64,000 bases of DNA from an uncultured Anaerolineales bacterium (GCA_964353865.1 CAYGXJ010000040.1:36329-100328); one strand, 5' to 3'. Positions 27,385 to 46,172 are shown, numbered from the stretch's first letter. Numbers and translations: made by a program. Notes: generated from the sequence alone by a model not told the origin.

Positions 27385-28197
27385 CTACAGCGAGAGCAAC
27401 AACCCCACCAGGTACGGCGCCCAGGCCAAGAGGGCCAACGCCGGGTGGCGGCCGCGCGTCACGTTCTTGCTATCCCATTTGAAGAGAAAAACGCTCATAG
27501 CGAAGGCCAGCAGCCCGCCCGCCGCGAGCACGCCGAGCGAGAGCCACGGGTCGATGCTCGGCGCGCCGTGCATGGCCAGGCCGTCGAACGCGCTCATGGC
27601 ATACGTCGTCGGCAGGATCAGCGCGACCTTTGCCAGCGAAGCCGGGAGCACGCTGGTGGGGAGCATCAGCCCGCCCAGCAGCATCGACGGCAGGAAGAGC
27701 AGTTGCGACCACAACACCGTGATGCGGCTGCTCGAGGAAATCACGCCGATCAGGATGCCGATGCCGGCAAAGGCCAGCGCCATGACTAGGTAGATCAGGA
27801 AGAACGCCACCCAGTTGACCGGTGCCACGGCACCGAAGAACAGCGGTCCGGTGATGGCGATGATGACCGTGACCAGCAGCGCGTGCAGCATGGTGGTCAG
27901 GACCGGGATGACGAGGATCGAGAGCGTGGGCACGCCGTTGATGCGGTAGCTTCGGAAGATGCCCGCCTCGCGCGCGGTGACGTGCGGATCGGGCAGGCCG
28001 AGCAGCGCGCCGCTGAGCACCGCGAAGACCGACATGGCCGGGACCATCACCTGGATGAAACCCGGATTGAGCTGGGCGAAGAGCAGGCCCAGCAGCGCAT
28101 AGAAACCCAGCGGGAACAAATAGTTCATGAGCAGCAGCGTCCGGTTGCGGATGCCGGTGCGGAATTCGAAGGCGAAGTGCTGGGCGAAGGCGTTCAT
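27385..28197 (-). CDS. ABC-2 type transporter permease
   Basis: 270-aa protein with about six TM segments and a 4-nt overlap with the upstream ATPase gene. Confidence 0.75.
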   Translation of the reverse strand: MNAFAQHFAFEFRTGIRNRTLLLMNYLFPLGFYALLGLLFAQLNPGFIQVMVPAMSVFAVLSGALLGLPDPHVTAREAGIFRSYRINGVPTLSILVIPVLTTMLHALLVTVIIAITGPLFFGAVAPVNWVAFFLIYLVMALAFAGIGILIGVISSSSRITVLWSQLLFLPSMLLGGLMLPTSVLPASLAKVALILPTTYAMSAFDGLAMHGAPSIDPWLSLGVLAAGGLLAFAMSVFLFKWDSKNVTRGRHPALALLAWAPYLVGLLLSL

Positions 28198-29111
28198 CGA
28201 GCAGCCCCTTTCGTCGTGATCTCCAGAAAGCGGTCCTCGAGCGATGGGCGTTCGACGCGCAGGTCGATCAGCGTGTCCCCCTGCGCGGCCAGGTGCGAGA
28301 TGAGGGCCGAGATGGTCGGGCCGATATCGCGGCTGAAGTAGATGACGTACTCGCCTTCGGTCGCCGTCTGCGCGACGGCGGGGAAGGAAAGCCCCGCGGC
28401 CATGAGGCTCGAGCCTTCGGTGCGCACTGAGATCTTGGTCAGGCCGGCGCCGGTGGCGGTGATCTCAAGCGGTGTGCCGAGCGCGACCAGCTTGCCGCGC
28501 ATGAGGATCGCCACGCGCGTCGACATCTCGGCCGCTTCGGCCATATCGTGCGTCGCGAGCAGGATCGTTGTGCCGCCGGCCTGCAGCTCGCGCATCAGGT
28601 CGTGCAGCATGGCACGCGAGGCCACGTCCAGCCCGGCGGTCGGTTCATCGAGGAAGAGGACCGGCGGCTTGTGGGCGACGGCCAGCGCGAGCGAGAGCCG
28701 CCGCTGCTGCCCGGCCGAGAGCTGGTGGTACTGTGCCGTGCGCTTTTCGGCCAGCCCGACGCGGTCTATGAGGTCGTCACGTGGCGGCGCTCCATGGTAG
28801 GCGCAGAACAGGCGCAGCGCCTCATCGACGCGGATGCTTTCCGGCAGGCCGGAGGTTTGAAGCTGCACGCCGATGAGCGAGCGCAGTTGGCGCGTCTGGC
28901 GCGCGGGGTCTACGCCCGCGATGCGCAGCGATCCGCCATCCGGGAAGCGCAGCCCCTCCAGGCTTTCGAGGGTGGAGGTCTTGCCGGCGCCGTTGGGGCC
29001 GAGCAGGCCGAAGATCTCGCCGCGCTCGACCTCGAAGCTGATCCCATCGACGGCGACGAACGTGCCGTACGCCTTGCGAAAATCCTTGACTTGGATGACG
29101 GTTTCGTTCAT
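28194..29111 (-). CDS. ABC transporter ATP-binding protein (ABC-2/DrrA-like)
   Basis: Walker A GLLGPNGAGKTS, signature LSAGQQRRLSLA and Walker B VLFLDEPTAGLD. Start at MNETVIQVKDF (29111); the 461-aa ORF extension upstream is repeat or non-coding DNA. Confidence 0.85.
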   Translation of the reverse strand: MNETVIQVKDFRKAYGTFVAVDGISFEVERGEIFGLLGPNGAGKTSTLESLEGLRFPDGGSLRIAGVDPARQTRQLRSLIGVQLQTSGLPESIRVDEALRLFCAYHGAPPRDDLIDRVGLAEKRTAQYHQLSAGQQRRLSLALAVAHKPPVLFLDEPTAGLDVASRAMLHDLMRELQAGGTTILLATHDMAEAAEMSTRVAILMRGKLVALGTPLEITATGAGLTKISVRTEGSSLMAAGLSFPAVAQTATEGEYVIYFSRDIGPTISALISHLAAQGDTLIDLRVERPSLEDRFLEITTKGAAR

Positions 29112-29234
29112 CGTGCGACCTCCAGGCGTGGCGGTGGATTCCGGCGCGTTACCTGCATTGTAGCGTGAGCTCAGCCTTGCCGGCATCCTACAAAAGAGGG
29201 ACGGGTAGACCGGTGGCCGGGTGAAGTCGCTCTC

Positions 29235-29281
29235 GGTCTCTGGGAGCCTGTCCCGCGAAGCGGGAGGGGCGTGGGGGTGCC
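29235..29281. repeat. solo P2 repeat module
   Basis: GGTCTCTGGGAGCCTGTCCCGCGAAGCGGGAGGGGCGTGGGGGTGCC lies in the spacer between the ABC operon start and the island. Confidence 0.7.
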
Positions 29282-29456
29282 CGCTGCGGGCGTTGTGCGC
29301 GGATATTCGGTCCAGTAGGAGCACGGGCAGATTGAGGATTGGAGAGGGGGTGGCCCATGGACGACGGGTGCCGAGGGCGGAAGGCGGTGATGCACGCGGT
29401 AACGTGGATCCATTGCGAGGAGTGAGCGCAGCGCAGATGGAGGTTGCAGTCGTCGT

Positions 29457-29485
29457 TTGACCGCTCGCGGAATATCGGCAACAAT
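29457..29485 (+). promoter_or_regulatory. candidate promoter of the five-gene island operon
   Basis: TTGACC, a 17-nt spacer, then AACAAT, about 45 nt upstream of ATG 29531, which has a strong AAGGAGGG Shine-Dalgarno. Confidence 0.4.
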
Positions 29486-29530
29486 TGAGGCCGGGGGGCG
29501 CGAAACCCCTGGGGGCAAGGAGGGTCGCTG

Positions 29531-30217
29531 ATGCACCGAGTTCTTCCGCTGCTCGCGCTTGCCAGCCTTCTGCTTTCACATTCCTCTCCAGCTGGACCGA
29601 TTAGCGTTGGCAAGACGCGGGTCGAAAACGGCTACCCCGAATCCATCACGTTTGAGGCAGCTGTCGCCAGCACGGCCGGGCTCCTCAGCCGCGTCGAGTT
29701 GCATGTCCGCGTGCGCGGCGATTCCATGACCTCGGTGATCGTCGCGCCGATCGAGCCGGCCGCCTCGCTGCCGACGCGCGCAGAGTGGAAGACGCGCGCG
29801 AACGATTTCCAGGACCTTGTGGCGGATCTTCTCAAGGCGATGGGCTACCATGTGAGTTGGGTAGCGCTGAGGGGCAAGGATGTTGGTGTCGACATCATTG
29901 CCCACACCGACCCGCTGGGCGCGAACCCTCCCCGCATCAAGATCCAGGCGAAGAGAACGGAGGAGGCCGCAAAAGTAGAAGCTGTGCGCGCGTTCATGTC
30001 CCGGTTAGGCGATGACGACGTAGGGATCTTCGTATGTCGAGGAGGATTCACGAAGGATGCTGCAGACGAGGCGCGCGAGCAGGAGAAACGCAAAGTAACC
30101 CTCATCGATGAGGGCAGGCTATTTGACCTCTGGGTTGAGCGCTATGACAAGCTGACGCAAGAGGCTCGCGACTGGATGCCGACTAGGCCGATCTACTTCC
30201 TACCACCAGGCGAGTAG
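29531..30217 (+). CDS. Mrr-cat (PD-(D/E)xK) restriction-endonuclease-domain protein with signal-peptide-like N-terminal extension
   Basis: The C-terminal roughly 135 aa read FQDLVADLLKAMGYHV...GKDVGVDIIAH...RIKIQAKRTEE...GIFVCRGGFTKDAADEA...VTLIDEGRLFDL, which fits the Mrr catalytic-domain pattern. The N-terminal roughly 95 aa (MHRVLPLLALASLLLSHSSPAG...) look like a Sec signal plus an unrelated beta-rich segment. Internal alternative start at 29726. Confidence 0.7.
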   Translation: MHRVLPLLALASLLLSHSSPAGPISVGKTRVENGYPESITFEAAVASTAGLLSRVELHVRVRGDSMTSVIVAPIEPAASLPTRAEWKTRANDFQDLVADLLKAMGYHVSWVALRGKDVGVDIIAHTDPLGANPPRIKIQAKRTEEAAKVEAVRAFMSRLGDDDVGIFVCRGGFTKDAADEAREQEKRKVTLIDEGRLFDLWVERYDKLTQEARDWMPTRPIYFLPPGE

Positions 30218-30219
30218 GC

Positions 30220-30429
30220 ATGCCAACCCATAGAGATGTCCAGAGGATCGTCAAGGCGCGCCATGGCTTCCAACCGAAGCCATGCTGGATCGCTGATGTA
30301 AAGGAAATGTCCGGGCTACCAGTTCGACGTGCATGGAATCGGCAAGGCCGGACTCGCAAGAACCCTTGCCCGGGGACAAAGATCGAGGCCATCCAGCAGG
30401 CGATGAAAGAGCTCGGGATGATCTCCTAG
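30220..30429 (+). CDS. small basic hypothetical protein (69 aa)
   Basis: It starts 2 nt after the Mrr-cat stop and ends 24 nt before the next gene. It is rich in R/K, with the segments KPCWIADVKE and RKNPCPG. No family call. Confidence 0.5.
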   Translation: MPTHRDVQRIVKARHGFQPKPCWIADVKEMSGLPVRRAWNRQGRTRKNPCPGTKIEAIQQAMKELGMIS

Positions 30430-30453
30430 GTCAGCGGGCAGAGAAACGCTGGG

Positions 30454-31677
30454 ATGTCGTCTACCTTCACTTGGCTTGACCACTCCGAGTACGAGCGTCG
30501 CAAGATGCTCGACGTCATCGAACTCTTCCGAGAACGGGACACTCGCGATGAGCTTGGCCTTGGGACGATTCGGGATGCCTTCGCCGACCTGTTCTTTCCC
30601 GGCACGAGCACGATCCAGACCCGGGCACGCTATTTCTTCATCGTTCCTTGGATGTACCTGGAGCTGGAAAGTAAGCGAGTTGCATCTGCCGCAGTAGCTG
30701 ATCGGGTGCGGAAATACGAAATCTCCCTTATTGACGCGCTTCTCGAGTCAGGAGAAACCGATGGAGTTCTTGGCCGGGTCGCTGGGATAAGCCTCCAGCG
30801 GCTGCCCAGCAACATCTATTGGCAAGGCGTTGGGATCCTTGGCATTCGCCTTTTTCCCGGGTCCCAGCCACAATACCACCGCAGCCTGGATCGCTTCTAT
30901 CTCTTGAAGGGGCGGCAGGCTCATGACGACGATGGCGAGCCGGTGGGCAGTGCGCTGGAGGGCAACTGGCACCCGGGCCTCCCGGAGCCGCCAGGAGAGT
31001 TCCCTCGCAAGGCAAGCCTGAAGCTCACGCGAATGGAAGCCCGCTACCTTCGGGAACGGATCACGGCCCGCGCGCCCGATTCCCTCTTCAGGTTCCTGGC
31101 CGAGCGAGGGCGCGAGGTTGAAGAGCTTGACTTCCCCTGGCAACACCCGCAGTCTGCGGAGTTCCCCGCTCGCTGCCTGGAGCAGCTCCGCCATGCCCGC
31201 AACTTCTCCGAAGCCATGCACGGCGCCTCGCTGCTGTACAACTTGATGCTCTCCAATATGGCTGCCAAGGATGAGCTCGTCTCCGAGTACGAGCAACGCC
31301 TGAAGGAGTGGGCCGTCGCCATGCGCTCCAGGCACGTTGAATTCCTTTCTTGGGACCGCGCCCGATTCTGGCAGATCGTCAGCTCGCACGGAGCTCGGGT
31401 AAGCCGAGGCACCCGCCTCTTCGTCGAGAGCTGGCTGGAGCTTGTGTCCGCCGATGAGTCCCCCGGCCGATCGGCGGCGGGGAACAAAGCTCGCAACCTG
31501 GTCCACGAGCGCGAACGCGCCCTAAAACGCAGCCTGGCGCGGCTCGACAACCGCAGGGCACTTGAGCTCTGGAGCGGGGCGGCAGGGACCGCGCAGTTGA
31601 ACTACCGTTGGCGGATCGCCCAGCGGATATTGAATGACATCTATCAGGGAGTGTCACAGGACGGCCGAGGTGCTTGA
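30454..31677 (+). CDS. DUF6361-like protein (function unknown)
   Basis: 407 aa. The N-terminus FTWLDHSEYERRKMLDVIELFRERDTRDELGLGTIRDAFADLFFPGTSTIQTRARYFFIVPW matches my memory of DUF6361. The family assignment is unverified. Confidence 0.7.
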   Translation: MSSTFTWLDHSEYERRKMLDVIELFRERDTRDELGLGTIRDAFADLFFPGTSTIQTRARYFFIVPWMYLELESKRVASAAVADRVRKYEISLIDALLESGETDGVLGRVAGISLQRLPSNIYWQGVGILGIRLFPGSQPQYHRSLDRFYLLKGRQAHDDDGEPVGSALEGNWHPGLPEPPGEFPRKASLKLTRMEARYLRERITARAPDSLFRFLAERGREVEELDFPWQHPQSAEFPARCLEQLRHARNFSEAMHGASLLYNLMLSNMAAKDELVSEYEQRLKEWAVAMRSRHVEFLSWDRARFWQIVSSHGARVSRGTRLFVESWLELVSADESPGRSAAGNKARNLVHERERALKRSLARLDNRRALELWSGAAGTAQLNYRWRIAQRILNDIYQGVSQDGRGA

Positions 31678-33526
31678 GCCAAACGACCGCCGTCACTTGC
31701 TGGACAGCTTGAGACCCCCAGAGGGGTACGTGCTCACGCATGCGCTGGGCACAACCTACTCGCTTGACCTCCTTAGCCTCCTTACCGTGCCGTTGGCATT
31801 CTCCCTCTTCGACTGGGAAGCACAGGACGGGAGCCAGACGAAGGATCCGCTGGCTGTGCTCGAGGCCTTGCGCAGGCATGCCGAGCATATCTTGATCTTC
31901 TGCCAGGCCGGCGCGATCTACGTTCCCGATAACGCGCCGCTACTAATTGCGAGCCTTGAGCCCTCGGTTGTCGAGGTGCGAGCGACCCGCGATGCGGGAG
32001 TCTTCCACCCCAAAATATGGTTCCTGCGCTTCGCCTCTTCCTCCGGACCGATCCTGTACCGGCTCATTTGTGCCAGCCGCAACCTGACATTCGATCGCAG
32101 CTGGGATACCGTCCTGGTGCTGGAGGGGGAGCTCGAGGAGCGGCAGGTCGGGTTCGGGGCGAATCGACCGCTGGCGGACTTCATCCAGGCCTTGCCAGCG
32201 CTGGCGCCGCACGGGGTTCCGGCAACACGTCTTGAGATTGTCCAGAGGATGCAGCGCGAGATCAGGAAGGTGCGCTTCGTTCCTCCCGAAGATTTCGACG
32301 AGGTCACCTTCTGCCCCCTCGGGATCCACGGGCATCGGAGCTGGCCCTTGCCCGAGACGATACGGAAGCTCCTAGTTGTCTCCCCGTTTCTGAGTGTCGA
32401 TTTGCTCCAGCGGCTTGCTGGAAGTGCCCAAGAGGCTGTGCTTGTCTCGAGGTTGGAGGCGCTGCAAGCACTCAGCCGAAAGCAGTTTGGCGGTTTCTCC
32501 CACCTCTACACCCTGGCGGCGGAAGCGGACCCCGAGCCAGAAGCCGAGGTTGCGGCAGAGCCGCTCCCCGAGACGGCGACTGCCGGCCTGCATGCCAAGC
32601 TGTATGTTGCCGATCTCGGATGGGACTCAAAGGTGTGGACCGGGTCGGCCAACGCGACGACGGCTGCCTTTCGGGACAATGTCGAGTTTCTGGTGGAACT
32701 CACGGGCAAGCGCTCGGTTTGCGGTGTGGACAGCCTGCTCGAGCCTGCGTCGGGGAGGATGAGGCTTGCTGATCTACTCGAGAAGTTCGTGCCGGAGAAG
32801 GATGCGCTCCCTGTGGATCCGGTCCAGGTGGCCATGGAGCAGGGTATCGAGCAGATGAAGAGGCGCATTGTCGATGCGCGGATTCGAGCACACGTTGTTC
32901 CAAGCAGAGCCGAGGACGCGTACACAGTCGTCCTCCACGGCAAATCCGGCGCCGACAGGCTTGCCACGGATTCAGAGCTGGATGTCAAGGTCCACTGCTG
33001 GCCTATCATGCAACAAGAGGAGAGCGCGGCCGCGATCGAGCGACTTGGCGGCGAGGTGGCGTCCTTTGCGAGCCTCTCGTTTCCAGGATTGACTTCCTTC
33101 TTTGCCTTCCGCGTGGACATAGCCCGGGCAGGCAAGAAGCTGTCGTCCCGATTCGTGCTGAATCTACCGCTGGTCGGCGAGCCCGAGGACCGTCAAGAGC
33201 GACTCTTGCGTCACCTACTTCAGGACCGCAACCAGGTCCTGCGGCTGCTGCTCCTGATCTTGTCTGATGTCGACGGCGCTGAACTCGGCCAAGCTGAGGT
33301 GAGGCGGCTCTTGGCGGATACCGGGCCGAGTGTGAGATTCCCGTATTCGGGCGCTCTCCTGGAGCCTCTTCTGCGCGCGCTTGCCCGGGACCCCGAGAAG
33401 CTGGATGAGGTTGCGCACCTCGTCGACGATCTGGAACGCACAGCGGAGGGCCAGGCGCTGCTGCCCGAAGGCTTTCACCGCGTTTGGGATCCGATCTGGG
33501 CGACGAGGGGGGCCAAGCGAGTGTGA
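31634..33526 (+). CDS. phospholipase-D-family (two HKD motifs) putative nuclease
   Basis: HKD-1 is GVFHPKIWFLRF...ASRNLTFD (His codon 32006). HKD-2 is GLHAKLYVADLGWDSKVWTGSANAT (His codon 32591). About 300 aa of C-terminal sequence have no recognisable motif. The gene overlaps its upstream neighbour (ATG 31634, or GTG 31670). Confidence 0.8.
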   Translation: MTSIRECHRTAEVLEPNDRRHLLDSLRPPEGYVLTHALGTTYSLDLLSLLTVPLAFSLFDWEAQDGSQTKDPLAVLEALRRHAEHILIFCQAGAIYVPDNAPLLIASLEPSVVEVRATRDAGVFHPKIWFLRFASSSGPILYRLICASRNLTFDRSWDTVLVLEGELEERQVGFGANRPLADFIQALPALAPHGVPATRLEIVQRMQREIRKVRFVPPEDFDEVTFCPLGIHGHRSWPLPETIRKLLVVSPFLSVDLLQRLAGSAQEAVLVSRLEALQALSRKQFGGFSHLYTLAAEADPEPEAEVAAEPLPETATAGLHAKLYVADLGWDSKVWTGSANATTAAFRDNVEFLVELTGKRSVCGVDSLLEPASGRMRLADLLEKFVPEKDALPVDPVQVAMEQGIEQMKRRIVDARIRAHVVPSRAEDAYTVVLHGKSGADRLATDSELDVKVHCWPIMQQEESAAAIERLGGEVASFASLSFPGLTSFFAFRVDIARAGKKLSSRFVLNLPLVGEPEDRQERLLRHLLQDRNQVLRLLLLILSDVDGAELGQAEVRRLLADTGPSVRFPYSGALLEPLLRALARDPEKLDEVAHLVDDLERTAEGQALLPEGFHRVWDPIWATRGAKRV

Positions 33527-36500
33527 ATCGCGTCGCCGAGCGACCCGATGTGGCGAGGATCGAGAGCGGGCTGAAGGATTTTCAGCGTGCAACGGTTGAC
33601 TATGTGTTCCGCCGCCTGTACACCGACCCGCGGCCCACGCGACGGTTCTTGATCGCGGATGAGGTAGGCCTTGGGAAAACCCTCGTGGCTCGGGGCGTAA
33701 TCGCTCGGGCGATCGACCACCTCTGGGATCTCGTGGACCGGATCGATATCGTCTACATCTGCTCGAACGCCGACATCGCCCGCCAGAACATCAACCGCCT
33801 CAACGTGACAGGCCAGGAGGGGTTCGCCCTGGCCTCCCGCATAACGCTCCTCCCCCTCGAGTATCACGAACTCGATCAGAGGAGACTCAACTTCATCTCC
33901 TTCACCCCGGGAACGTCGTTCGAACTCAGGTCCAGCATGGGGATGGGCACAGAACGCGCGCTTCTGTACCGGCTGCTGGAGGCCGGCTGGGGTCTCAAGG
34001 GAAACACTCCCCTGAATGTCCTGCGCGGCAATATGGGCTCGGAGAACTTCCGGTGGCGGGTGAAGGAGTCTCGCGAGTGGCAGATCGATGCCCAGCTGGC
34101 GGAGGCGTTCCTTGGTGCACTTGAGAAGCGGATCGTGGAGCAGCAGTCCCGAGGCGAGCAGGATCTACGGGCTCGGTTGGAGGACCTCTGCAAGGCCTTT
34201 GCTCGCTCAGACAGCCGAGTGACCGAAGAGGCATGGTGGGAGCGGACCGCCTGGGTGGGCGAGGTGCGGTCGCTGCTCGCGCAGACCTGTCTCAGCCAGC
34301 TCCAGCCGGACCTGATCATACTAGACGAGTTCCAACGGTTCAAGAACCTGCTGATGGGCGAGGACGCGGCGAGCCAACTGGCGCATGAACTCTTCAAGTA
34401 TGCTGACGCCCAGACGGCGGCACGTGTTCTCCTCCTCTCAGCCACGCCCTACAAGATGTACACGCTTGCACAAGAAGCAGGGGAAGACCACTATCGCGAT
34501 TTCCTTGAGACGGCTCGCTTTCTCCAAGACGATAAGGAAGCCACGATCCGTCTGGAAGGCTTGTTGGAGTCCTACAGGTCGGCAATCCTCCGAGCAGGCG
34601 AGCCAATCGGCGAGGATGTCGAGGGCGTGCGAGGGCAACTGGAGGATTGCCTACGGGTGGTCATGGCACGCACCGAGCGGCTGGCCTCAACATCGGATCG
34701 CAGCGGGATGCTGACCGAAATTGAGTCAAACCCGGAGCTGGCGCCGGAGGACATTCTCTCCTACCTGGCCCTCGAGGACCTGTCTGGCGACCTCCACGAC
34801 AGGAACTCGCTGGAGTTCTGGAAGTCAGCCTCCTACCTCCTCAACTTCATGGAGGACTACCAACTTAAGCGATCCTTCCGGGATGCCCTCAAGGATCCGG
34901 CGCGTGGAGGGTCCATTGGAGAAAAGCTTGCCTCTTGGCCTCAGCTCCTCCTTCCGTGGCGCTGGAGGGTCGAGAAGTACCGGCCTGTGGCCCCGAGCAA
35001 TCCGCGACTGAGGGCGCTGCAATCTGAGACACTGGATATGGATGCCTGGAAGCTGCTCTGGCTTCCCCCCTCGCTGCCTTACTACAAGCTGGAGGGGGCG
35101 TATGCAGAGCCGCGACTGGCGGGGTTCTCCAAGCGGCTGGTCTTTTCTTCCTGGAAGGTAGTCCCCCGGGTCGTAGCGTCTTTGCTGAGCTACGAAGCCG
35201 AGAGGCGGATGATCACCTCGTACGAGCCGAAAGCCCTGAACACGCCGGAGGAGCGGGAGAAGAGGCGTCCTCTGCTGCGTTTTGCCCGGTCCGAAGGCAG
35301 GCTGACCGGGCTCGCCCTTTTTAGTTTGATCTACCCCTGTGTGGTCTTGGCTCGCGGCTTCGACCCGTTGGGCTATCCAGGCAACTGCACAGGAGAGGAT
35401 CGGCTTCCATCAGTGAAGGAACTGTTGGGGGTCATCCAGCCGCAAATCGCGGAGCTTGTCACGTCCAAATTGTCCGGCTTGGCGACCACCAGGGCCGTGG
35501 ACGAGCGCTGGTATTGGCTCGCGCCAATCCTGTTGGATCTGGAAACGGAAGCGCACCAAGCTAAGGATTGGTGGCAACAGGAGGGCTTGCCAACGGATTG
35601 GGCGTCCCAACAAGAGGATCTGAATGACGATGAGGGCACCTCGGCGTGGGCCGATCATGTCGCGCAGGTTCGGGACCTAGTGCAAGAGTGGCGTCGCGGT
35701 GAACTACAGCTTGGGGCGATTCCCGAAGATCTGGGTGCCCTCATGGCGCAGCTCGCGGTGGCGGCTCCTGGTGTGGTGATGCTGAGGTCGCTCTCCCGCA
35801 TATCCGATGGAAAGGCAGCTCAATCCAGCTTGAGTATCCGAAACGCATCCGCGCGGACAGCCCGGGCCTTCCTGAGTCTGTTCAACCTCCCCGAAGCCAC
35901 TTCCCTGGTGCGTGGCGTGAACGCCGAAGAACCCTTCTGGCGGCGAGTGCTTGAACACTGCGTGTCTGGCGGACTCCAGCCGGTGATGGACGAGTACGTC
36001 CACGGCCTGAAGGAGTCGCTTGGTTTTGTCGGGAGCGTGTCAGAGGCTGCGGCCTCGGAAGTGGCGGACGCCGTTCGATACGCTCTGGGGCTGCGCACAT
36101 CGACGCCGGTGATCGACGACATTCGCGTGGGTCCAAGGAGCCACAGGGTCACAATCCACGAACAGCGGATGAGAAACCGCTTTGCCGTGAGGTTTGGAGA
36201 TGAGAAGACGGAGGGGTACGGGCAGCCCACACGATCCGACCAGCTGCGGGCAGCCTTCAATTCCCCCTTCTGGCCGTTTGTCCTGGCCACGACGTCGGTT
36301 GGGCAAGAAGGGTTGGATTTCCACACCTACTGCCACATCGTTGTCCACTGGAACCTGCCCGCCAATCCTGTGGACCTTGAACAACGCGAAGGCAGAGTCC
36401 ACCGCTACAAAGGGCATGCCATCCGCAAGAATCTAGCCGCGAGGTACGGCCTTCGCAGCGTCTTGGGGTTGATGGATAGGAATCGTGATCCATGGGATGT

Positions 36501-36795
36501 CCTCTTTGAGCTCGGCGTGAAGGACCGAGCCAACGGGACTGATATTGTGCCCTTCTGGGTCTATCCAATAGAGGGCGGGGCTCGGATCGAGCGGCACCTC
36601 ATGATGCTGCCGCTTAGTCGCGAGGTGGAGCGGGCAGAGGAGTTGCGGAGATCCTTGGCGATTTACCGGATGGTGTTCGGCCAGCCGCGCCAGGAAGACT
36701 TGGTGAGCTACCTGCTAAGCCGCGTGCCGGAGGAGAACGTCGAGGCTTTGGGCGAACAGCTAAGGATCAACCTTACGCCCCCTCCGACAAAGTGA
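33484..36795 (+). CDS. SNF2-family helicase-related ATPase
   Basis: Motif I LIADEVGLGKT, II LIILDEFQRFKN, III LLLSATPYKMY, putative IV KRLVFSSWKVV, V TTSVGQEGLDF and VI QREGRVHRYKGH. The gene overlaps the PLD gene (ATG 33484, or GTG 33523 in a GTGA overlap with the stop). Confidence 0.85.
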   Translation: MGSDLGDEGGQASVNRVAERPDVARIESGLKDFQRATVDYVFRRLYTDPRPTRRFLIADEVGLGKTLVARGVIARAIDHLWDLVDRIDIVYICSNADIARQNINRLNVTGQEGFALASRITLLPLEYHELDQRRLNFISFTPGTSFELRSSMGMGTERALLYRLLEAGWGLKGNTPLNVLRGNMGSENFRWRVKESREWQIDAQLAEAFLGALEKRIVEQQSRGEQDLRARLEDLCKAFARSDSRVTEEAWWERTAWVGEVRSLLAQTCLSQLQPDLIILDEFQRFKNLLMGEDAASQLAHELFKYADAQTAARVLLLSATPYKMYTLAQEAGEDHYRDFLETARFLQDDKEATIRLEGLLESYRSAILRAGEPIGEDVEGVRGQLEDCLRVVMARTERLASTSDRSGMLTEIESNPELAPEDILSYLALEDLSGDLHDRNSLEFWKSASYLLNFMEDYQLKRSFRDALKDPARGGSIGEKLASWPQLLLPWRWRVEKYRPVAPSNPRLRALQSETLDMDAWKLLWLPPSLPYYKLEGAYAEPRLAGFSKRLVFSSWKVVPRVVASLLSYEAERRMITSYEPKALNTPEEREKRRPLLRFARSEGRLTGLALFSLIYPCVVLARGFDPLGYPGNCTGEDRLPSVKELLGVIQPQIAELVTSKLSGLATTRAVDERWYWLAPILLDLETEAHQAKDWWQQEGLPTDWASQQEDLNDDEGTSAWADHVAQVRDLVQEWRRGELQLGAIPEDLGALMAQLAVAAPGVVMLRSLSRISDGKAAQSSLSIRNASARTARAFLSLFNLPEATSLVRGVNAEEPFWRRVLEHCVSGGLQPVMDEYVHGLKESLGFVGSVSEAAASEVADAVRYALGLRTSTPVIDDIRVGPRSHRVTIHEQRMRNRFAVRFGDEKTEGYGQPTRSDQLRAAFNSPFWPFVLATTSVGQEGLDFHTYCHIVVHWNLPANPVDLEQREGRVHRYKGHAIRKNLAARYGLRSVLGLMDRNRDPWDVLFELGVKDRANGTDIVPFWVYPIEGGARIERHLMMLPLSREVERAEELRRSLAIYRMVFGQPRQEDLVSYLLSRVPEENVEALGEQLRINLTPPPTK

Positions 36796-36946: not shown

Positions 36947-37486
36947 ATGCATACGCCACGCACCCTGCGCCTCAGTCTCTGCCTCCTGTTCGCCGCCATG
37001 CTTGCCTGCAACTTGAAGGGGAACATGCTCTGGAACCTCGCCGGCCCGCAGACACCGGCCGATATCGTCGCAACATACGCGGCGCCGGCCGCGGACGACG
37101 CTGCGGTCGAGGAGTGCCTCGCGCCACCGGAGGCGTACGCGTTCGCCAACGAGAACCTCGACGTCAAGGTCGACGGCCCGAACGCGATCTGCAACGCCAC
37201 ATTTACACTCAAGAACCTCGGGCAGGAGCCACTTTCGGCCGTCGTCCACATCGCCTGGGATAACACGGTCGAGCAGTCGCAGTTCTGGGAAGTCAAGCCT
37301 CTGGGCCGGGGCGTGTCGTGGACCGAGCATGTGAACGAGTCCCACCTGATTCAGAATGCCTACTTGCGCGTGACCCACATGCTCGTGGTTCGCGATGTGC
37401 CTGAGTGCTGGTGGTTGGCCGCGAACGCCGAGCAGCCGCGCAGGGCAACGATTGCTGTCGCCATCGATCCACTCCCATGCCCGTGA
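36947..37486 (+). CDS. lipoprotein, hypothetical (copy A of a duplicated gene)
   Basis: Signal plus lipobox MHTPRTLRLSLCLLFAAMLAC, with GGAGGGG upstream. In my hand alignment, 87 of 122 C-terminal residues are identical to ORF 49733..50203. Confidence 0.6.
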   Translation: MHTPRTLRLSLCLLFAAMLACNLKGNMLWNLAGPQTPADIVATYAAPAADDAAVEECLAPPEAYAFANENLDVKVDGPNAICNATFTLKNLGQEPLSAVVHIAWDNTVEQSQFWEVKPLGRGVSWTEHVNESHLIQNAYLRVTHMLVVRDVPECWWLAANAEQPRRATIAVAIDPLPCP

Positions 37487-37617: not shown

Positions 37618-38064
37618 CTACCCGCCCACCAACTCCGGATGGCTCTTTTTGAGCCAAGCCTCGACTGCCTTCGTCAACGCCTTAGCCTCACTGACGAGTT
37701 CATTGGCCTCGGTGTCGGAAATCCCTCCGCCCCGGTCATAAGTGCCGACATTCCGCTTGGTGCGGCAACTCTCGAGGTAGATAGCCAGGCCGGCGGATTC
37801 CTTCCCCATGACGAGCGGTAGCGCCTGGAAAGTGACCCGGTGGTGGCCCGCCCCATGTGTCTGATATCCGGCACACGCGAGCGGGACCGTGGCCAGCGGC
37901 AGGACCGCTTCATATGCAATCAGGAACCGCCGGTCGGGTGAGAGACCCGCAACCGAGGCATCCGTCAAGTCACGCTTTGCGAGCCTTAGTAGATCTCCGA
38001 TTTCCTTGCCGCTTGTCTTGTGTCGCCTGAGTTGTCCCTCGGCCAGCAAGCACTCTAAGCTCAT
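37618..38064 (-). CDS. HEPN-domain toxin (HEPN/MNT type II/VII TA system)
   Basis: 148 aa. The N-terminus LLAEGQLRRHKTSGKEI and the RTKRNVGTYD motif region (Rx4-6H-like position) are typical of HEPN partners of MNT. It lies downstream of and overlapping the MNT gene. Confidence 0.7.
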   Translation of the reverse strand: MSLECLLAEGQLRRHKTSGKEIGDLLRLAKRDLTDASVAGLSPDRRFLIAYEAVLPLATVPLACAGYQTHGAGHHRVTFQALPLVMGKESAGLAIYLESCRTKRNVGTYDRGGGISDTEANELVSEAKALTKAVEAWLKKSHPELVGG

Positions 38065-38656
38065 CGTCGCCCCCTATGAGATAGATCTTGGGTGCCTCCA
38101 GCGTCGCGTGGAGAAAGTGGTTTCCCTCGCGCGCCTTGCGCCGGAACTCGGCCTTGGTCATGAGAACCGGATTGATTTCTCGCCCCAGGCTCTCCCGAAG
38201 AGGGGCGAGCAGCCCGGCCAGCGCTCTCCCGGTCAGCGCCCCAATGACCAGGATGTCGATGTCGCTCGAGGCCGTGTCGGTGCCCTCGGCAATTGAGCCA
38301 AAGATGAAGGCGACCTCGATCTCGCCAGATGCCTGCTGAAGGCTTTCTCTTAGCGCATCGCCCATTCCGACTGTCTTGAGCAGTAGGGACTTGAGTTCGG
38401 GGAAGATCGGCGCTCTGCGATTGGCTTGGTAGTACTTGCGATTGCCCTCCACAGACGACTGCAAGAGCCCGCTCGCCTCCAGGCGCGCCACCTCAACCTG
38501 AACCGCGCGTACTGGCAGGTCGGCTTTGGTCGCAATCTCACGCAAATAGAAGCGGCGATCCGGGTTTAAGAGGAGCAGCTTGAGCACGGCTAGGCGCGCC
38601 TGCGAGGTGAAGAGTGCTTCGGCCAGCGAGCCGGAATGTATACTTTTTTTAGTCAT
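37970..38656 (-). CDS. wHTH-fused minimal nucleotidyltransferase (MNT antitoxin)
   Basis: The N-terminal ArsR-like wHTH reads RLAVLKLLLLNPDRRFYLREIATKADLPVRAVQVEVARLEASGLL. The NTase motif is AFIFGSIAEGTDTASSDIDILVIG. Start moved to ATG 38656 because the ORF-track start 38695 lies in the -35 box. Confidence 0.8.
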   Translation of the reverse strand: MTKKSIHSGSLAEALFTSQARLAVLKLLLLNPDRRFYLREIATKADLPVRAVQVEVARLEASGLLQSSVEGNRKYYQANRRAPIFPELKSLLLKTVGMGDALRESLQQASGEIEVAFIFGSIAEGTDTASSDIDILVIGALTGRALAGLLAPLRESLGREINPVLMTKAEFRRKAREGNHFLHATLEAPKIYLIGGDDELRVLAGRGTTQATQDKRQGNRRSTKARKA

Positions 38657-38666
38657 ATGTATACAT
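38636..38666. promoter_or_regulatory. two ATGTATAC operator-like sites flanking the MNT start codon
   Basis: ATGTATAC at 38636..38643 and ATGTATACAT at 38657..38666 (a 10-bp perfect palindrome) are spaced 21 nt start to start. They are candidate binding sites for the wHTH of the MNT protein. Confidence 0.45.
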
Positions 38667-38695
38667 AATATATACGTTGCAAAGCGGGTTGTCAA
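38667..38695 (-). promoter_or_regulatory. strong sigma70-type promoter of the MNT/HEPN cassette (near-leaderless)
   Basis: The minus strand reads TTGACA, a 17-nt spacer, then TATATT. The -10 element ends 10 nt before ATG 38656, so the leader is only a few nt. The stretch is strikingly AT-rich for this genome. Confidence 0.6.
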
Positions 38696-43204: not shown

Positions 43205-44569
43205 CTACTTGGCGCCCGTCTGCGACTCACTCGCCTCGAGCTTGGCGCGCACCGCGGCGTGTGACTTGCGCGTGATCGGATAGCGGATGAGGAGCGGCAG
43301 CGAAAGGAAGATGCATACCGCCGGGATCAGCCCGAAGAAGGCACGGATGCCGAGCAGCGCCTGCGGCGTCTGCTCCACATTGGGAACATAACCCGAGCCG
43401 GTCAGGATCCAGCCCACGGCGGCCAGCGCGAAGGCCTCCGAGACCTTGGTCGCCAGCCCCCACACGCCGTAGTACACGCCGCTGCGCTGCTGCCCGGTCT
43501 CGGCGCGATCGAAATCGGCCACGTCGGCCACCATCGACCAGGGGAAGATCCACTGCGCGGCGAGCCCGAATCCGCCCAACAGGGCAACCAGGTAGACCAG
43601 CGGGGTCTCTCGGTGCGGCAGGAAGAATGTGATGGCGAACGCCAGCGCTCCAATGGCCATGCCCAGCGCGTACGCCGGTCCCTTGTCCATCTTCTGCCCG
43701 AGCCATTTCCAGAAGGGGATTGAGGCCGTAACGCAAATCAGCATCAGGCCCATCACCAGCGCGGTTTGCTCCTTCATCAGGAGTTGGTACTCGATGTAGT
43801 AGGCCATCAGCGTCTTGACGAAGGCGAAGGCAATGTTCATCACAAGATAGGTCCCACACAGCCAGAGGAACGGCTTGTTGCGCATGGCAAGGGCGAAGGA
43901 TCGGAGGGGCGAGGCCTCAGAGGGAGCCACGGCCGCGACGCCGCGCTCGCGGATGCCGGCGACGGAGATCAGCAGCACGAGCGCCGCCAGGGCGCCATAG
44001 GCGATACCGATGAACGCGAAGCCGGTGCGCTGCAAGGCGAACAGGCCCACGATGGCGGGCGTCAGCGCCGCCCCCACCAGGTAGGCCGGGACGGCCAGCG
44101 CCATCCGGTAGGAGATCAGGGCCGAGCGCTCATCGTAGTCGTCGGTCAGTTCCGAGGTGAGCGCGTAGTAGGGGACATTGGTGATCGTCCACAGCGTGTC
44201 GAACAGCATGAAGGTCAGCGCAATCCAGATGAAGGTGGAGATCCGCTCTGCGGGAGGGACGTACCAGAGCAGGGCGATGGAGATGCCGAGCGGGATGGCG
44301 CCGAAGATCATGAAGACCCGGCGCTTGCCGAAGCGCGACTTCGCCTTGTCGGTGAACCAGCCGGCCAAGGGATCGTTGATCGCATCCCAGATCTTGCCAA
44401 TGAGCAGCGCGCTGCCGGCCAGGGCCGGCACGACCAACGCGGCGTCGGTGTAGAACTTCATCAAGAAGAACTGCACGGCCGAGTTGACCGTGGCGTTGCC
44501 CACGTCCCCCATGCCGTAGAAGAACTTGGTGCGCGCCGGCAGCTTGCCAGATTTCGATGCATTGCCCAT
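43205..44569 (-). CDS. GPH-family MFS symporter (second copy)
   Basis: MGNASKSGKLPARTKFFYGMGDVGNATV...DAINDPLAGWFTDKAKSRFGKRR. Start at ATG 44569; the 743-aa ORF 43205..45436 is an artefactual 5' extension across the next gene. Confidence 0.8.
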   Translation of the reverse strand: MGNASKSGKLPARTKFFYGMGDVGNATVNSAVQFFLMKFYTDAALVVPALAGSALLIGKIWDAINDPLAGWFTDKAKSRFGKRRVFMIFGAIPLGISIALLWYVPPAERISTFIWIALTFMLFDTLWTITNVPYYALTSELTDDYDERSALISYRMALAVPAYLVGAALTPAIVGLFALQRTGFAFIGIAYGALAALVLLISVAGIRERGVAAVAPSEASPLRSFALAMRNKPFLWLCGTYLVMNIAFAFVKTLMAYYIEYQLLMKEQTALVMGLMLICVTASIPFWKWLGQKMDKGPAYALGMAIGALAFAITFFLPHRETPLVYLVALLGGFGLAAQWIFPWSMVADVADFDRAETGQQRSGVYYGVWGLATKVSEAFALAAVGWILTGSGYVPNVEQTPQALLGIRAFFGLIPAVCIFLSLPLLIRYPITRKSHAAVRAKLEASESQTGAK

Positions 44570-44589
44570 GGATTCCTCCCCTGTCCCCG

Positions 44590-45219
44590 TCAAATCGATC
44601 CGAGGAACGCGCGGACGCGTGGGTCGGCCTTCGCAGCGGAGTCCAGAACAGGACGGAAGGCCGGGAATGTGAGCGCCGGGCGAACGACCTCGCCCGGCAA
44701 GGCTTCCAGGATCTCGATCATCGGCCGGTGAGCGGCGGTGGACACCTGCCCCAACATCTTGCGTGCCTCTCGCTGCGGCTCGGCGCGTTCGCTCGGGTAG
44801 CCCTCGCCCCGTCCGGGGCCGAGCAGGGCGTCGAATATTAAACGCAGGTTGACGTCGGATGCCCAGCCATAGCCCTGATTGAGCGCCAGCGAGATGCAGT
44901 TGCCGGCATTGATGCGCGAGAAGAGCCACGCATCCAAGGGCGTGAGCAGATGGCCGCACACCACGCCGGGATACTGCAGTACGGCATTCATGAAGCCGAG
45001 GCCGGTCCCGCAGCCGCCGACAACGAGATCGGCCGCGTTGAGGTGCACGAGCAGCGCCGCCATCAAGCCGGTGTGAATGTAGAGCAGCGCGGGGACCTCT
45101 CCGGCGGCGGTGTTGCCGAGGTTGTGGATCTCGAGCCCGCGCCCGTCCAGCGCGGCGAGGAGGTCCGCGTTCCGATGTGCGGCGCTGATCTCGTTGATCA
45201 CGGCGACACGCATACTCAC
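44590..45219 (-). CDS. RpiB/LacA/LacB-family sugar(-phosphate) isomerase-like protein
   Basis: 209 aa. MRVAVINE...LVVGGCGTGLGFMNAVLQYPGV resembles RpiB/LacAB. Start is GTG 45219 (GTGA overlap with the transketolase stop) or ATG 45213. Confidence 0.6.
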   Translation of the reverse strand: MSMRVAVINEISAAHRNADLLAALDGRGLEIHNLGNTAAGEVPALLYIHTGLMAALLVHLNAADLVVGGCGTGLGFMNAVLQYPGVVCGHLLTPLDAWLFSRINAGNCISLALNQGYGWASDVNLRLIFDALLGPGRGEGYPSERAEPQREARKMLGQVSTAAHRPMIEILEALPGEVVRPALTFPAFRPVLDSAAKADPRVRAFLGSI

Positions 45220-46172
45220 CTTCCTGACTTGCGCACAAGAACCCGCTGCGCCGCAGCTCGTATGTCGGCTTCGGAGAGCCCGCAGGCGTCCAGGAGCGAC
45301 TCGGGATCGCGCCCGGTGGGGCAGAAGTGGTCGCGGATGCCGACGCGCTCCAGCGGAACTGGGTGGCCCTCGGCCAAGGTCTCGGCCACGGCGCTGCCGA
45401 GCCCGCCGAGGATGTTGTGCTCCTCGACCGTGACAAGGGCGCCGGTATCGCCTGCGGCCTGGAGGATCAGGTCGCGGTCGAACGGTTTGAGCGTGTGGAT
45501 CTCGACGAGGCGCGCGTCGATCCCCTGCTGTGCGAGGGCCTCGGCTGCGCGCCGGCTGCGCCCTACCATCGCCCCGCTTGCGACCAGTGTCACGTCGGCA
45601 CCGGACCGAAGGACGATGCCCTTCCCGATTTCGAGCGCAATTGTGCCGTCGTGTGCCGGCAAGGTCGCCGCCCGGCTGATCCGCAGGTAGACCGGGCCGT
45701 CGAACTCGGCGACGCGTGGCACCCAGGCAGCCGCCTCGTCCGCATCGGCCGGGACGATCACCGTGATGTTCGGCAGCGCGCGCAGGTTGGCGATGTCAGT
45801 CATCGAGTAATGTGTGGCGCCGTCCTTGAAGTCCGAGAGGCCGGCGAATCCTGCCACCAGCTTGATGTTGGTGCGCGCGTAGCACACGCAGGTCCGCACC
45901 TGTTCAAGTGCGCGCAACGAGAGCAGGCAAGCGAAGGCGTTGGCGAAGGGGATCAGGCCGCCCAGCGCCAGCCCGACGGCGACGTCGACCATGGCCGGCT
46001 CGGCGATGCCGATGTTGAAGAAGCGCTCCGGGAAGCGCTTGGCGAAGAACGAGGAGAGCGTGGAGGCGGATGTGTCCACATCCAGGGCAACGACGTCTGG
46101 GTGCGCAGCCGCATAGTCGGCCAGCGCCCGCCCGTACGCCTCGCGCATCGACACCTCGCCCATGTCAGCCAT
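45216..46172 (-). CDS. transketolase, C-terminal (pyrimidine-binding) subunit
   Basis: MREAYGRALADYAAAHPDVVALDVDTS...FFNIGIAEPAMV is the split-transketolase B-subunit pattern. It overlaps the upstream subunit by 8 nt. Confidence 0.85.
   Translation of the reverse strand: MADMGEVSMREAYGRALADYAAAHPDVVALDVDTSASTLSSFFAKRFPERFFNIGIAEPAMVDVAVGLALGGLIPFANAFACLLSLRALEQVRTCVCYARTNIKLVAGFAGLSDFKDGATHYSMTDIANLRALPNITVIVPADADEAAAWVPRVAEFDGPVYLRISRAATLPAHDGTIALEIGKGIVLRSGADVTLVASGAMVGRSRRAAEALAQQGIDARLVEIHTLKPFDRDLILQAAGDTGALVTVEEHNILGGLGSAVAETLAEGHPVPLERVGIRDHFCPTGRDPESLLDACGLSEADIRAAAQRVLVRKSGR

What the first reader, a model, noticed from the sequence alone, without database searches (positions are those of the whole stretch)
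30454..36795. Translationally coupled DUF6361-like / two-HKD PLD nuclease / SNF2 helicase triad: candidate compact nucleic-acid defence system
Seen in sequence:
- Three co-directional ORFs of 407, 630 and 1103 aa overlap one another. With ATG starts the overlaps are 44 and 43 nt. Alternative GTG starts at 31670 and 33523 give 8-nt and GTGA-type overlaps. They therefore look like one translational unit.
- The middle protein has two HKD motifs: GVFHPKIWFLRF..ASRNLT and GLHAKLYVADLGWDSKVWTGSANAT.
- The last protein has SNF2/SF2 motifs I, II (DEFQ), III, V and VI.
- The first protein has no catalytic motif I can recognise. Its N-terminus matches my memory of the uncharacterised DUF6361 family.

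Established knowledge: PLD-family nucleases paired with SF2/SNF2 helicases recur in phage-defence systems, for example DrmC with DrmD in class 1 DISARM and PLD plus helicase in Mokosh. I believe, but cannot verify here, that unknown protein + PLD + helicase is the architecture of the three-gene Azaca (ZacABC) system.

Inference: this is a defence or anti-plasmid module. No methyltransferase, DUF1998 or DrmA-like gene is present anywhere in the window. Self/non-self discrimination and the role of the DUF6361-like protein are therefore unexplained.
Basis: partly seen in the sequence, partly recalled or inferred. Interest (0 to 1): 0.85.

Follow-up and report, generated by a model that had tools for sequence, protein, structure and literature searches.

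The report
Ordinary Azaca (ZacABC) phage-defence operon

Summary
The three ORFs exist as described and are real genes. Each matches one Azaca profile of PADLOC over its full length: ZacA 1.2e-136, ZacB 1.2e-176, ZacC E=0 at 1138 bits. ZacA is also a full-length Pfam DUF6361 (1.4e-76). Both PLD catalytic motifs of ZacB and SF2 motifs I, II, III, V and VI of ZacC are present and are invariant across 59-81 homologues.

In 80 genomes from more than a dozen bacterial phyla and from archaea, zacA-zacB-zacC keep the same order, strand and abutting or overlapping junctions. No fourth gene is conserved, and the flanks are often other defence genes. DISARM, RapA and cardiolipin-synthase placements fail.

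Small corrections:
- 33484 is TTG, not ATG.
- The likely true starts are GTG 31670 and GTG 33523, giving 8-nt and 4-nt overlaps.

Published work on Bacillus Azaca (bioRxiv 2025.07.10.664194) shows that ZacABC is a nuclease complex needing all three proteins, the ZacB active site and the ZacC Walker A motif. It prefers hypermodified T4 DNA, which would explain why no methyltransferase is needed.

The cassette lies in a lower-GC ~9-kb islet with an Mrr-type nuclease gene and a PDC-M05 pair.

Verdict: already known, low interest.

The parts
30454..31677 (+). zacA: DUF6361 protein, 407 aa, predicted all-alpha fold, no catalytic motif recognised
   Evidence: Pfam PF19888 at 1.4e-76, residues 3-396 against profile 2-384/388. 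PADLOC ZacA at 1.2e-136, residues 1-400 against 1-394/396. 48 residues are invariant in 81 homologues. AF2 model has pLDDT 82 and is all helical. Foldseek finds no PDB relative.
31670..33526 (+). zacB: single-chain two-motif PLD-superfamily nuclease, 618 aa from GTG 31670. An alternative ATG at 31634 gives 630 aa. The 8-nt overlap with zacA suggests translational coupling.
   Evidence: PADLOC ZacB at 1.2e-176, residues 13-628 against 1-584/586. AF2 model has pLDDT 85. Its N-terminal two-lobe PLD fold matches Tdp1, PLD3, NgoAVII, SauUSI, BfiI and NucT. NCBI's shorter start at 31730 removes invariant residues.
31997..32089 (+). ZacB catalytic motif 1: GVFHPKIWFLRF ... ASRNLT (H125, K127, N150 in ATG numbering)
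   Evidence: Read from the sequence. H125, K127 and N150 are conserved in at least 97% of 67 homologues.
32585..32659 (+). ZacB catalytic motif 2: GLHAKLYVADLGWDSKVWTGSANAT (H320, K322, N340)
   Evidence: Read from the sequence. H320, K322, G337, S338 and N340 are conserved; D327 does not reach that level. Pfam PLDc_2 scores 25.4 bits here, below its cut-off of 27.
33523..36795 (+). zacC: SF2 (SNF2-related) ATPase/helicase, 1090 aa from GTG 33523, with a GTGA overlap onto the zacB stop codon. The longest ORF starts at TTG 33484.
   Evidence: PADLOC ZacC at E=0, 1137.9 bits, residues 22-1099 against 5-1016/1019. Pfam Helicase_C. The 1090-aa product is on record at NCBI. A GAGGGGGG Shine-Dalgarno-like run lies upstream of 33523.
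33667..33681 (+).
   Evidence: Invariant in homologues.
34324..34335 (+). ZacC motif II / Walker B, DEFQ
   Evidence: Invariant in homologues.
34438..34449 (+). ZacC motif III, SATP
   Evidence: Invariant in homologues.
36292..36396 (+). ZacC motifs V-VI, TSVGQEGLD ... QREGR. This is the only stretch that resembles DpdE, DrmD, BrxH and RapA.

Best explanation
Identity. Bases 30454-36795 encode a complete, uninterrupted Azaca (ZacABC) anti-phage system. It is a translationally coupled operon: zacA (DUF6361), then zacB (two-motif PLD-family nuclease), then zacC (SF2/SNF2-related ATPase).

Mechanism, inferred from the characterised Bacillus homologue and from family chemistry. The three proteins assemble into one complex. 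ZacC binds and hydrolyses ATP on DNA. This licenses or positions ZacB, which cuts double-stranded DNA through the PLD-type covalent phospho-histidine mechanism. ZacA is an obligatory structural or specificity subunit. Invading DNA is told apart from host DNA by a property of the phage DNA itself, most likely bulky base hypermodification as in T-even phages. That makes it an ATP-dependent, modification-dependent (type IV-like) restriction complex, so no cognate methyltransferase is needed.

Shown here: gene identity, integrity of all catalytic motifs, conserved synteny and gene overlaps, patchy mobile distribution, and defence-island context.

Inferred: complex formation, ATP dependence, DNA cleavage and the nature of the cue in this particular organism.

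Confidence. About 0.95 that it is Azaca. About 0.5 for the modification-dependent restriction mechanism.
For: - Family assignment. Full-length hits to PADLOC ZacA, ZacB and ZacC (1.2e-136, 1.2e-176, E=0) and to Pfam DUF6361.
- Catalytic residues. ZacB H125, K127, N150, H320, K322 and N340, and ZacC motifs I, II, III, V and VI, are present and at least 97% conserved in 59-81 homologues.
- Fold. The ZacB model has a two-lobe PLD fold that matches the DNA-acting enzymes Tdp1, PLD3, NgoAVII, SauUSI, BfiI and NucT.
- Synteny. zacA, zacB and zacC keep the same order and strand and abut in every one of 80 loci long enough to judge, from more than 12 phyla including Methanothrix and a haloarchaeal plasmid. 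Modal junctions are -8 and -4 nt.
- No fourth gene. The largest cluster of flanking genes covers 3 of 81 loci.
- Mobility and context. Homologues lie on 48 plasmids. Neighbours elsewhere are BREX, Thoeris, RM, Lamassu and Gabija components.
- Local acquisition. GC is 0.62 against 0.65-0.66 in the flanks, and GC3 is 0.73-0.74 against about 0.8-0.9.
- Experiments on homologues. BmAzaca and KpAzaca protect against T4, at more than 1e6-fold. Purified BmZacABC prefers T4 dsDNA. All three subunits, the ZacB active site and the ZacC Walker A motif are required.
Against: - No experiment exists on this homologue, and its host and phages are unknown.
- The closest relatives found were 83% identical (ZacA). 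Its identity to the experimentally studied Bacillus and Klebsiella systems was not measured.
- The modification cue is only suggested in the preprint. No test with unmodified T4 DNA is reported in the text read.
- Mutating conserved ZacA residues had no effect in vitro, so a specificity role for ZacA is unsupported.
- ZacA has no detectable structural relative.
- Pfam PLDc_2 is just below its gathering score on ZacB (25.4 against 27).
Confidence: 0.93

Rival explanations
1. It is Azaca, but the trigger is not DNA modification. ZacC would act as a sensor helicase that detects phage replication intermediates, free DNA ends or damaged DNA, as HamB does in Hachiman. It would then release ZacB for indiscriminate DNA degradation, possibly as abortive infection.
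For: The nuclease-plus-SF2-helicase layout is shared with Hachiman, for which this mechanism is established (abstract of PMC12278908). The same analogy has been proposed for Azaca. BmAzaca cut sites are highly degenerate, 5' A|NT. The modification cue is only a suggestion.
Against: Purified BmZacABC discriminated between naked DNAs in vitro. It preferred T4 DNA over host, plasmid and other phage DNAs, which points to a property of the DNA itself. Unlike Hachiman, Azaca needs the helicase Walker A motif for cleavage.
Confidence: 0.25
2. The five co-directional genes from about 29.7 to 36.8 kb (Mrr_cat nuclease, 69-aa protein, ZacA, ZacB, ZacC) form one composite system in which a type IV Mrr-type nuclease cooperates with Azaca.
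For: Spacing is tight: 2 nt between the Mrr ORF and the 69-aa ORF, and 24 nt from there to zacA. Mrr_cat genes lie on the same strand just upstream of zacA in 3 of 81 loci. A NACHT-Mrr_cat gene lies nearby in L086. Both Mrr and, putatively, Azaca act on modified DNA.
Against: The closest Azaca relatives (83% ZacA identity) share nucleotide homology with the window only from 30451 onwards, which is exactly at zacA. 78 of 81 loci lack the pair. The Mrr ORF matches only the C-terminal part of PDC-S02. Defence genes cluster for reasons other than joint function.
Confidence: 0.05
3. It is a remnant or minimal form of DISARM (DrmC PLD + DrmD SNF2 helicase) or of Mokosh, rather than Azaca.
For: Weak local hits of ZacB to DrmC and of ZacC to DrmD, DpdE and BrxH.
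Against: Those hits cover only about 40-60 residues around one HKD motif or around motifs V-VI. DrmC scores 24.7 bits against a cut-off of 133, and DrmD 59.9 against 610, whereas the Zac profiles score 587 and 1138 bits. No DrmA, DrmB/DUF1998, methyltransferase or Mko hit appears in the window.
Confidence: 0.02
4. These are housekeeping genes: a cardiolipin-synthase-like PLD and a RapA-like RNA-polymerase recycling ATPase.
For: ZacC motifs V-VI resemble RapA (E about 1e-4 to 4e-3 against PDB; NCBIfam 32 bits).
Against: The RapA model cut-off is 576 bits. No cardiolipin-synthase family is hit. The distribution is patchy across bacteria and archaea with unrelated flanks, includes plasmids and sits next to defence genes. 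GC is atypical locally.
Confidence: 0.01

Closest known systems
Azaca (ZacABC). Attributed to Millman et al. 2022 in PMC10952713. Biochemistry in bioRxiv 10.1101/2025.07.10.664194.
   Same: Same three families in the same order. Full-length profile matches. The same catalytic residues that were shown to be required in BmAzaca: the ZacB HKD sites and the ZacC Walker A motif.
   Different: Nothing architectural. This copy comes from an unidentified high-GC organism (an NCBI contig of 104,638 bp). It is 58-60% identical (ZacA) to the nearest relatives in named genomes. Its phage targets are unknown.
SauUSI (PDB 7clg), an ATP-dependent type IV restriction enzyme. To my knowledge it is modification-dependent.
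   Same: A PLD-family nuclease is combined with an SF2 helicase motor. By analogy, the target would be modified foreign DNA, with no methyltransferase needed. SauUSI is the best PDB sequence hit of the ZacB profile (E 0.007) and also a Foldseek hit (8.6e-4).
   Different: SauUSI is a single polypeptide with one PLD domain per chain and its own target-recognition domain. Azaca is split over three proteins, has both PLD motifs in one chain, and adds DUF6361. Similarity is confined to one HKD motif, so it is not a family member.
DISARM class 1 DrmC/DrmD, and the Dpd DpdE and BREX BrxH helicases
   Same: A PLD protein is paired with an SNF2-like ATPase in a defence context. ZacC motifs V-VI align to DrmD, DpdE and BrxH.
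   Different: Scores are far below the family cut-offs. There is no DrmA, DrmB or methyltransferase. ZacB is about 620 aa with two motifs plus a beta-sandwich and a helical C-terminal region, whereas the DrmC profiles it hits are only 153-267 positions long.
Tdp1 and PLD3/4, single-chain two-lobe PLD-superfamily enzymes that act on DNA
   Same: These are the best structural matches to the ZacB catalytic region (Foldseek E about 1e-6, TM about 0.40-0.46 normalised to the target). The conserved triads are H-K-N, and the motif-2 Asp is not invariant, as in the HKN motifs of Tdp1.
   Different: These are eukaryotic repair or lysosomal enzymes. Sequence identity is 11-12%. They have no partner helicase.
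Hachiman (HamAB)
   Same: A nuclease-plus-SF2-helicase defence complex in which the nuclease needs the helicase subunit.
   Different: HamA is a PD-(D/E)XK nuclease. Walker motifs are dispensable for Hachiman cleavage in vitro but required in Azaca. Hachiman has no third subunit.

Membership tests
Azaca (ZacABC) | ZacA: a DUF6361-family protein | tested here: met
   Pfam PF19888 at 1.4e-76 and 258.5 bits against a cut-off of 25, full length. PADLOC ZacA at 1.2e-136, profile positions 1-394/396.
Azaca (ZacABC) | ZacB: a PLD-family nuclease with intact H-x-K catalytic motifs | tested here: met
   PADLOC ZacB at 1.2e-176, profile positions 1-584/586. H125/K127/N150 and H320/K322/N340 are present and conserved. 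The model has a PLD fold.
Azaca (ZacABC) | ZacC: an SF2 helicase/ATPase with Walker A and B motifs | tested here: met
   PADLOC ZacC at E=0 and 1137.9 bits, profile positions 5-1016/1019. GLGKT, DEFQ, SATP and QREGR are present and invariant. Pfam Helicase_C.
Azaca (ZacABC) | Three adjacent co-directional genes in the order zacA-zacB-zacC, forming one operon | tested here: met
   The window shows 8-nt and 4-nt overlaps. The same order is found in 80 loci and on annotated plasmids.
Azaca (ZacABC) | Confers phage resistance; ZacABC complex with ATPase-dependent DNA cleavage | not testable with these tools
   Known only for the Bacillus and Klebsiella homologues.
DISARM class 1 | DrmC and DrmD equivalogs together with DrmA, DrmB (DUF1998) and a methyltransferase | tested here: not met
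   NCBIfam DrmC scores 24.7 bits against a cut-off of 133, and DrmD 59.9 against 610. No DrmA, DrmB or MTase hit appears among the window ORFs scanned.
Mokosh | MkoA/MkoC helicase and PLD proteins matching the Mokosh profiles | tested here: not met
   No Mko profile appears among the PADLOC hits at E<=0.01. The generic PLD_Helicase profile scores only 22.8 bits on ZacC.
RapA / cardiolipin synthase (housekeeping) | Equivalog-level match and conserved chromosomal synteny | tested here: not met
   RapA scores 32 bits against a cut-off of 576, and there is no Cls hit. Flanks are unrelated between genomes.
SauUSI-type type IV restriction enzymes | A single chain with a PLD nuclease, an SF2 helicase and a modified-cytosine-reading domain | tested here: not met
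   Only a local match to one HKD motif (E 0.007; Foldseek 8.6e-4). The functions are split over separate genes. This is a functional analogy only.

The most novel reading that the evidence does not exclude
Two related readings are not excluded.

First, the upstream Mrr_cat nuclease gene and the 69-aa phrog_27283-family gene may be functionally joined to ZacABC as a five-gene composite that combines two readers of modified DNA.

Second, and more generally, ZacA (a fold with no solved relative) may be the subunit that senses DNA hypermodification or a phage protein. This locus would then offer a divergent high-GC orthologue for resolving the still-unknown Azaca recognition step.
Probability: 0.07. 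Interest if true: 0.45.

Novelty: already known. Interest (0 to 1): 0.15.

Why it matters
It matters little beyond annotation. The genes should be labelled zacA, zacB and zacC. The zacB start should move to 31670 or, less likely, to the upstream ATG at 31634. The database call at 31730 removes invariant residues.

The locus adds one more example of Azaca inside a small acquired defence islet in an otherwise metabolic chromosomal region.

The general open questions about Azaca remain, but they are not specific to this window:
- What does ZacA do?
- What exactly is recognised on phage DNA?
- What does the complex look like? Sequence and Foldseek searches found no solved structure closely related to any of the three proteins.

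Tried and rejected
- Exact-product look-ups of ZacA, P0001 and P0122 to recover the source contig returned nothing. The organism therefore stays unidentified. It is not among the species-representative genomes searched, where the best ZacA match is 58%.
- Foldseek of the ZacA model against PDB gave only noise (best E 0.7). The ZacA profile against PDB sequences also gave nothing.
- I looked for island boundaries. There are no tRNA genes, no convincing flanking direct repeats, no integrase among the ORFs scanned, and no Rfam family in the window.
- I looked for a conserved fourth gene by all-against-all comparison of flanking ORFs in 81 loci and found none.
- PHROGs gave nothing for ZacA or ZacB. 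Only one weak phage-record hit to ZacA was found, so the cassette is not typically phage-borne.
- DISARM, Mokosh, RapA and cardiolipin synthase were considered and rejected on profile scores.

Full report
**Observation**

The + strand between 30454 and 36795 carries three long overlapping ORFs of 407, 630 and 1103 aa. The first two begin with ATG. These are the better-supported starts, for these reasons:
- The ZacB profile starts at residue 13 of the long ORF. The ZacC profile aligns from residue 22 at its position 5.
- The 1090-aa product from 33523 is the one recorded at NCBI.
- An AGGA run precedes 31670 and a GAGGGGGG run precedes 33523.
- In 80 homologous loci the modal junctions are -8 and -4 nt. 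Independent gene calls also show short junction overlaps of 1 to 8 nt.

The database start for ZacB (598 aa, GTG 31730) is too short, because it removes five residues that are invariant across homologues.

Codon-position GC is coding-like.

**Identity**

- ZacA is a full-length Pfam DUF6361 (1.4e-76).
- Against PADLOC-DB the three proteins match ZacA (1.2e-136), ZacB (1.2e-176) and ZacC (E=0, 1137.9 bits). Each match covers essentially the whole profile.
- The next-best hits are local and far weaker. DrmC reaches about 17 bits on one HKD motif. DrmD, DpdE, BrxH and PDC-M27C reach 30-85 bits, mostly on motifs V-VI.
- NCBIfam confirms that no equivalog model is reached. DrmC scores 24.7 against a cut-off of 133, DrmD 59.9 against 610, DpdE 67.5 against 500, and RapA 32 against 576. 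No cardiolipin-synthase model is hit.

The locus is therefore Azaca, the three-gene system that the literature attributes to Millman et al. 2022.

**Cross-genome test**

A ZacA alignment retrieved 344 relatives in species-representative genomes. The 80 loci kept come from the following groups:
- Bacteria: Acidobacteriota, Chloroflexota, Bacillota, Actinomycetota, Verrucomicrobiota, Gemmatimonadota, Cyanobacteria, Myxococcota, Desulfobacterota, Planctomycetota, Bacteroidota and Pseudomonadota.
- Archaea: Methanothrix.

tblastn shows zacA, zacB and zacC on the same strand, in the same order and abutting, wherever the contig extends far enough. Only three loci look decayed: L036, L028 and L025.

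An all-against-all comparison of ORFs within 4 kb of the cassette found no conserved fourth gene. The largest cluster spans 3 of 81 loci. The cassette is therefore autonomous and mobile.

Homologues occur on 48 plasmids, including Cronobacter pESA3 and a haloarchaeal conjugative-type plasmid. There they are annotated as DUF6361 / phospholipase D family / helicase. Only one weak hit occurs in phage records.

Immediate neighbours in other genomes include BREX. Among 116 flanking ORFs there are hits to Thoeris ThsA, type IIG RM, SIR2, Lamassu LmuB, GajB, PDC-S02 and type IV REase profiles.

**Integrity and structure**

- ZacB residues H125, K127, N150, H320, K322 and N340 are conserved in at least 97% of 67 homologues. 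D327 does not reach that level, so the motifs behave as H-K-N triads.
- ZacC motifs I (GLGKT), II (DEFQ), III (SATP), V and VI (QREGR) are invariant.
- The AF2 model of ZacB (pLDDT 85) has three parts: an N-terminal two-lobe PLD fold, a beta-sandwich (about residues 405-500) and a helical C-terminal region.
- Foldseek matches the PLD part to Tdp1 (about 1e-6), the PLD3 5'-exonuclease, vaccinia F13, NgoAVII, SauUSI, BfiI and NucT. Most of these act on DNA or nucleic acids.
- The ZacB profile's only PDB sequence hit is the ATP-dependent restriction enzyme SauUSI (E 0.007).
- The AF2 model of ZacA (pLDDT 82) is all-alpha and has no relative in the PDB by fold or by sequence.
- ZacC resembles solved structures only through RapA motifs V-VI.
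- No solved structure closely related to any of the three proteins turned up.

**How it probably works**

Published experiments on homologues (bioRxiv 10.1101/2025.07.10.664194) show the following:
- BmAzaca and KpAzaca protect E. coli against T4, at more than 1e6-fold.
- Purified BmZacABC shows a clear preference for T4 dsDNA over host, plasmid and other phage DNAs.
- Cleavage needs all three subunits, the ZacB active site and the ZacC Walker A motif.
- Cut sites are degenerate (A|NT).
- Mutating conserved ZacA residues has no effect in vitro.
- The authors suggest glucosyl-hmC as the cue.

PLD chemistry proceeds through a covalent phospho-histidine intermediate (established knowledge, also restated). 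Combining this with the results above, the best model is an ATP-dependent, modification-dependent restriction complex, functionally akin to a split SauUSI.

For this locus, everything beyond gene identity and motif integrity is inference. The main rival is a Hachiman-like sensing of DNA ends or replication intermediates.

**Context**

- The cassette has GC 0.62, against 0.65-0.66 for the rest of the window. Its GC3 is 0.73-0.74, against about 0.8-0.9 in neighbouring genes.
- Upstream on the same strand are two genes. One is an Mrr_cat ORF (29531-30217) that matches only the C-terminal part of PADLOC PDC-S02. The other is a 69-aa ORF (30220-30429) that matches phrog_27283 over its full length and has plasmid-borne homologues.
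- Neither upstream gene belongs to the conserved cassette. Nucleotide homology with the nearest Azaca relatives starts at 30451.
- Downstream, on the opposite strand, lies a PDC-M05B/PDC-M05A pair (37618-38695).
- Beyond about 29.1 kb and 38.9 kb the genes are metabolic or transport genes: ABC-2 transporter, GH5, FAD oxidoreductase and MFS.
- No further defence hit of note occurs in the window. There are no tRNA genes, att-like repeats or Rfam families.

**Verdict**

However, this is a routine instance of a catalogued defence system that standard tools call automatically. Novelty: already known. Interest: low.

Noticed in passing
window 30220-30429 (+): A 69-aa ORF sits between the Mrr_cat gene and zacA. 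It matches phrog_27283 (unknown function) over its full length at 7.3e-18. Homologues of 35-51% identity occur on 11 plasmids, including an IncY plasmid, next to integrases or small hypothetical genes. It is almost an orphan in the large protein collection (2 hits). It is not linked to Azaca elsewhere.
   Followed up: partly
window 29531-30217 (+): An Mrr_cat (type IV restriction-type) ORF matches only positions 194-327 of the 334-position PDC-S02 profile. Its N-terminal 85 aa have no match, so the gene is probably truncated or its start is miscalled. Mrr_cat genes also lie just upstream of zacA in L036 and L066, and a NACHT-Mrr_cat gene lies nearby in L086.
   Followed up: partly
window 37618-38064 (-) and 37970-38695 (-): A PADLOC candidate defence pair. 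PDC-M05B scores 1.9e-49. PDC-M05A scores 5.8e-65 and matches the Pfam nucleotidyltransferase domains Polbeta and NTP_transf_2. An 11/12 sigma-70-like promoter lies at 38695-38667, which suggests that the PDC-M05A start lies downstream of the TTG at 38695.
   Followed up: partly
window 36947-37486 (+): A 179-aa ORF immediately after zacC has a lipoprotein-like N-terminus (LLFAAMLAC) and a host-like GC3 of 0.83. It has no hit in Pfam, PADLOC or PHROGs.
   Followed up: partly
window 31670-31730: The public (NCBI) product for ZacB is 598 aa, starting at GTG 31730. This removes residues L14, P16, R19, L26 and P28 (ATG numbering), which are invariant in 67 homologues. The start should be 31670, or possibly 31634.
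   Followed up: yes
L036 (Pontiellaceae), L028 (Nostoc foliaceum), L025: These look like decayed Azaca copies. In L036, zacA is followed by only an 88-residue zacB fragment and no zacC. ZacC is truncated at about residue 735 in L028 and about residue 992 in L025.
   Followed up: no
window 28194-29579 (-) and 43205-45436 (-): In these two longest ORFs the Pfam domains occupy only the C-terminal part. The ABC_tran domain covers residues 178-315 of 461 aa, and the MFS_2 domain covers residues 306-723 of 743 aa. The true starts are probably well downstream, which would leave a roughly 0.5-kb non-coding stretch left of the Mrr ORF.
   Followed up: no
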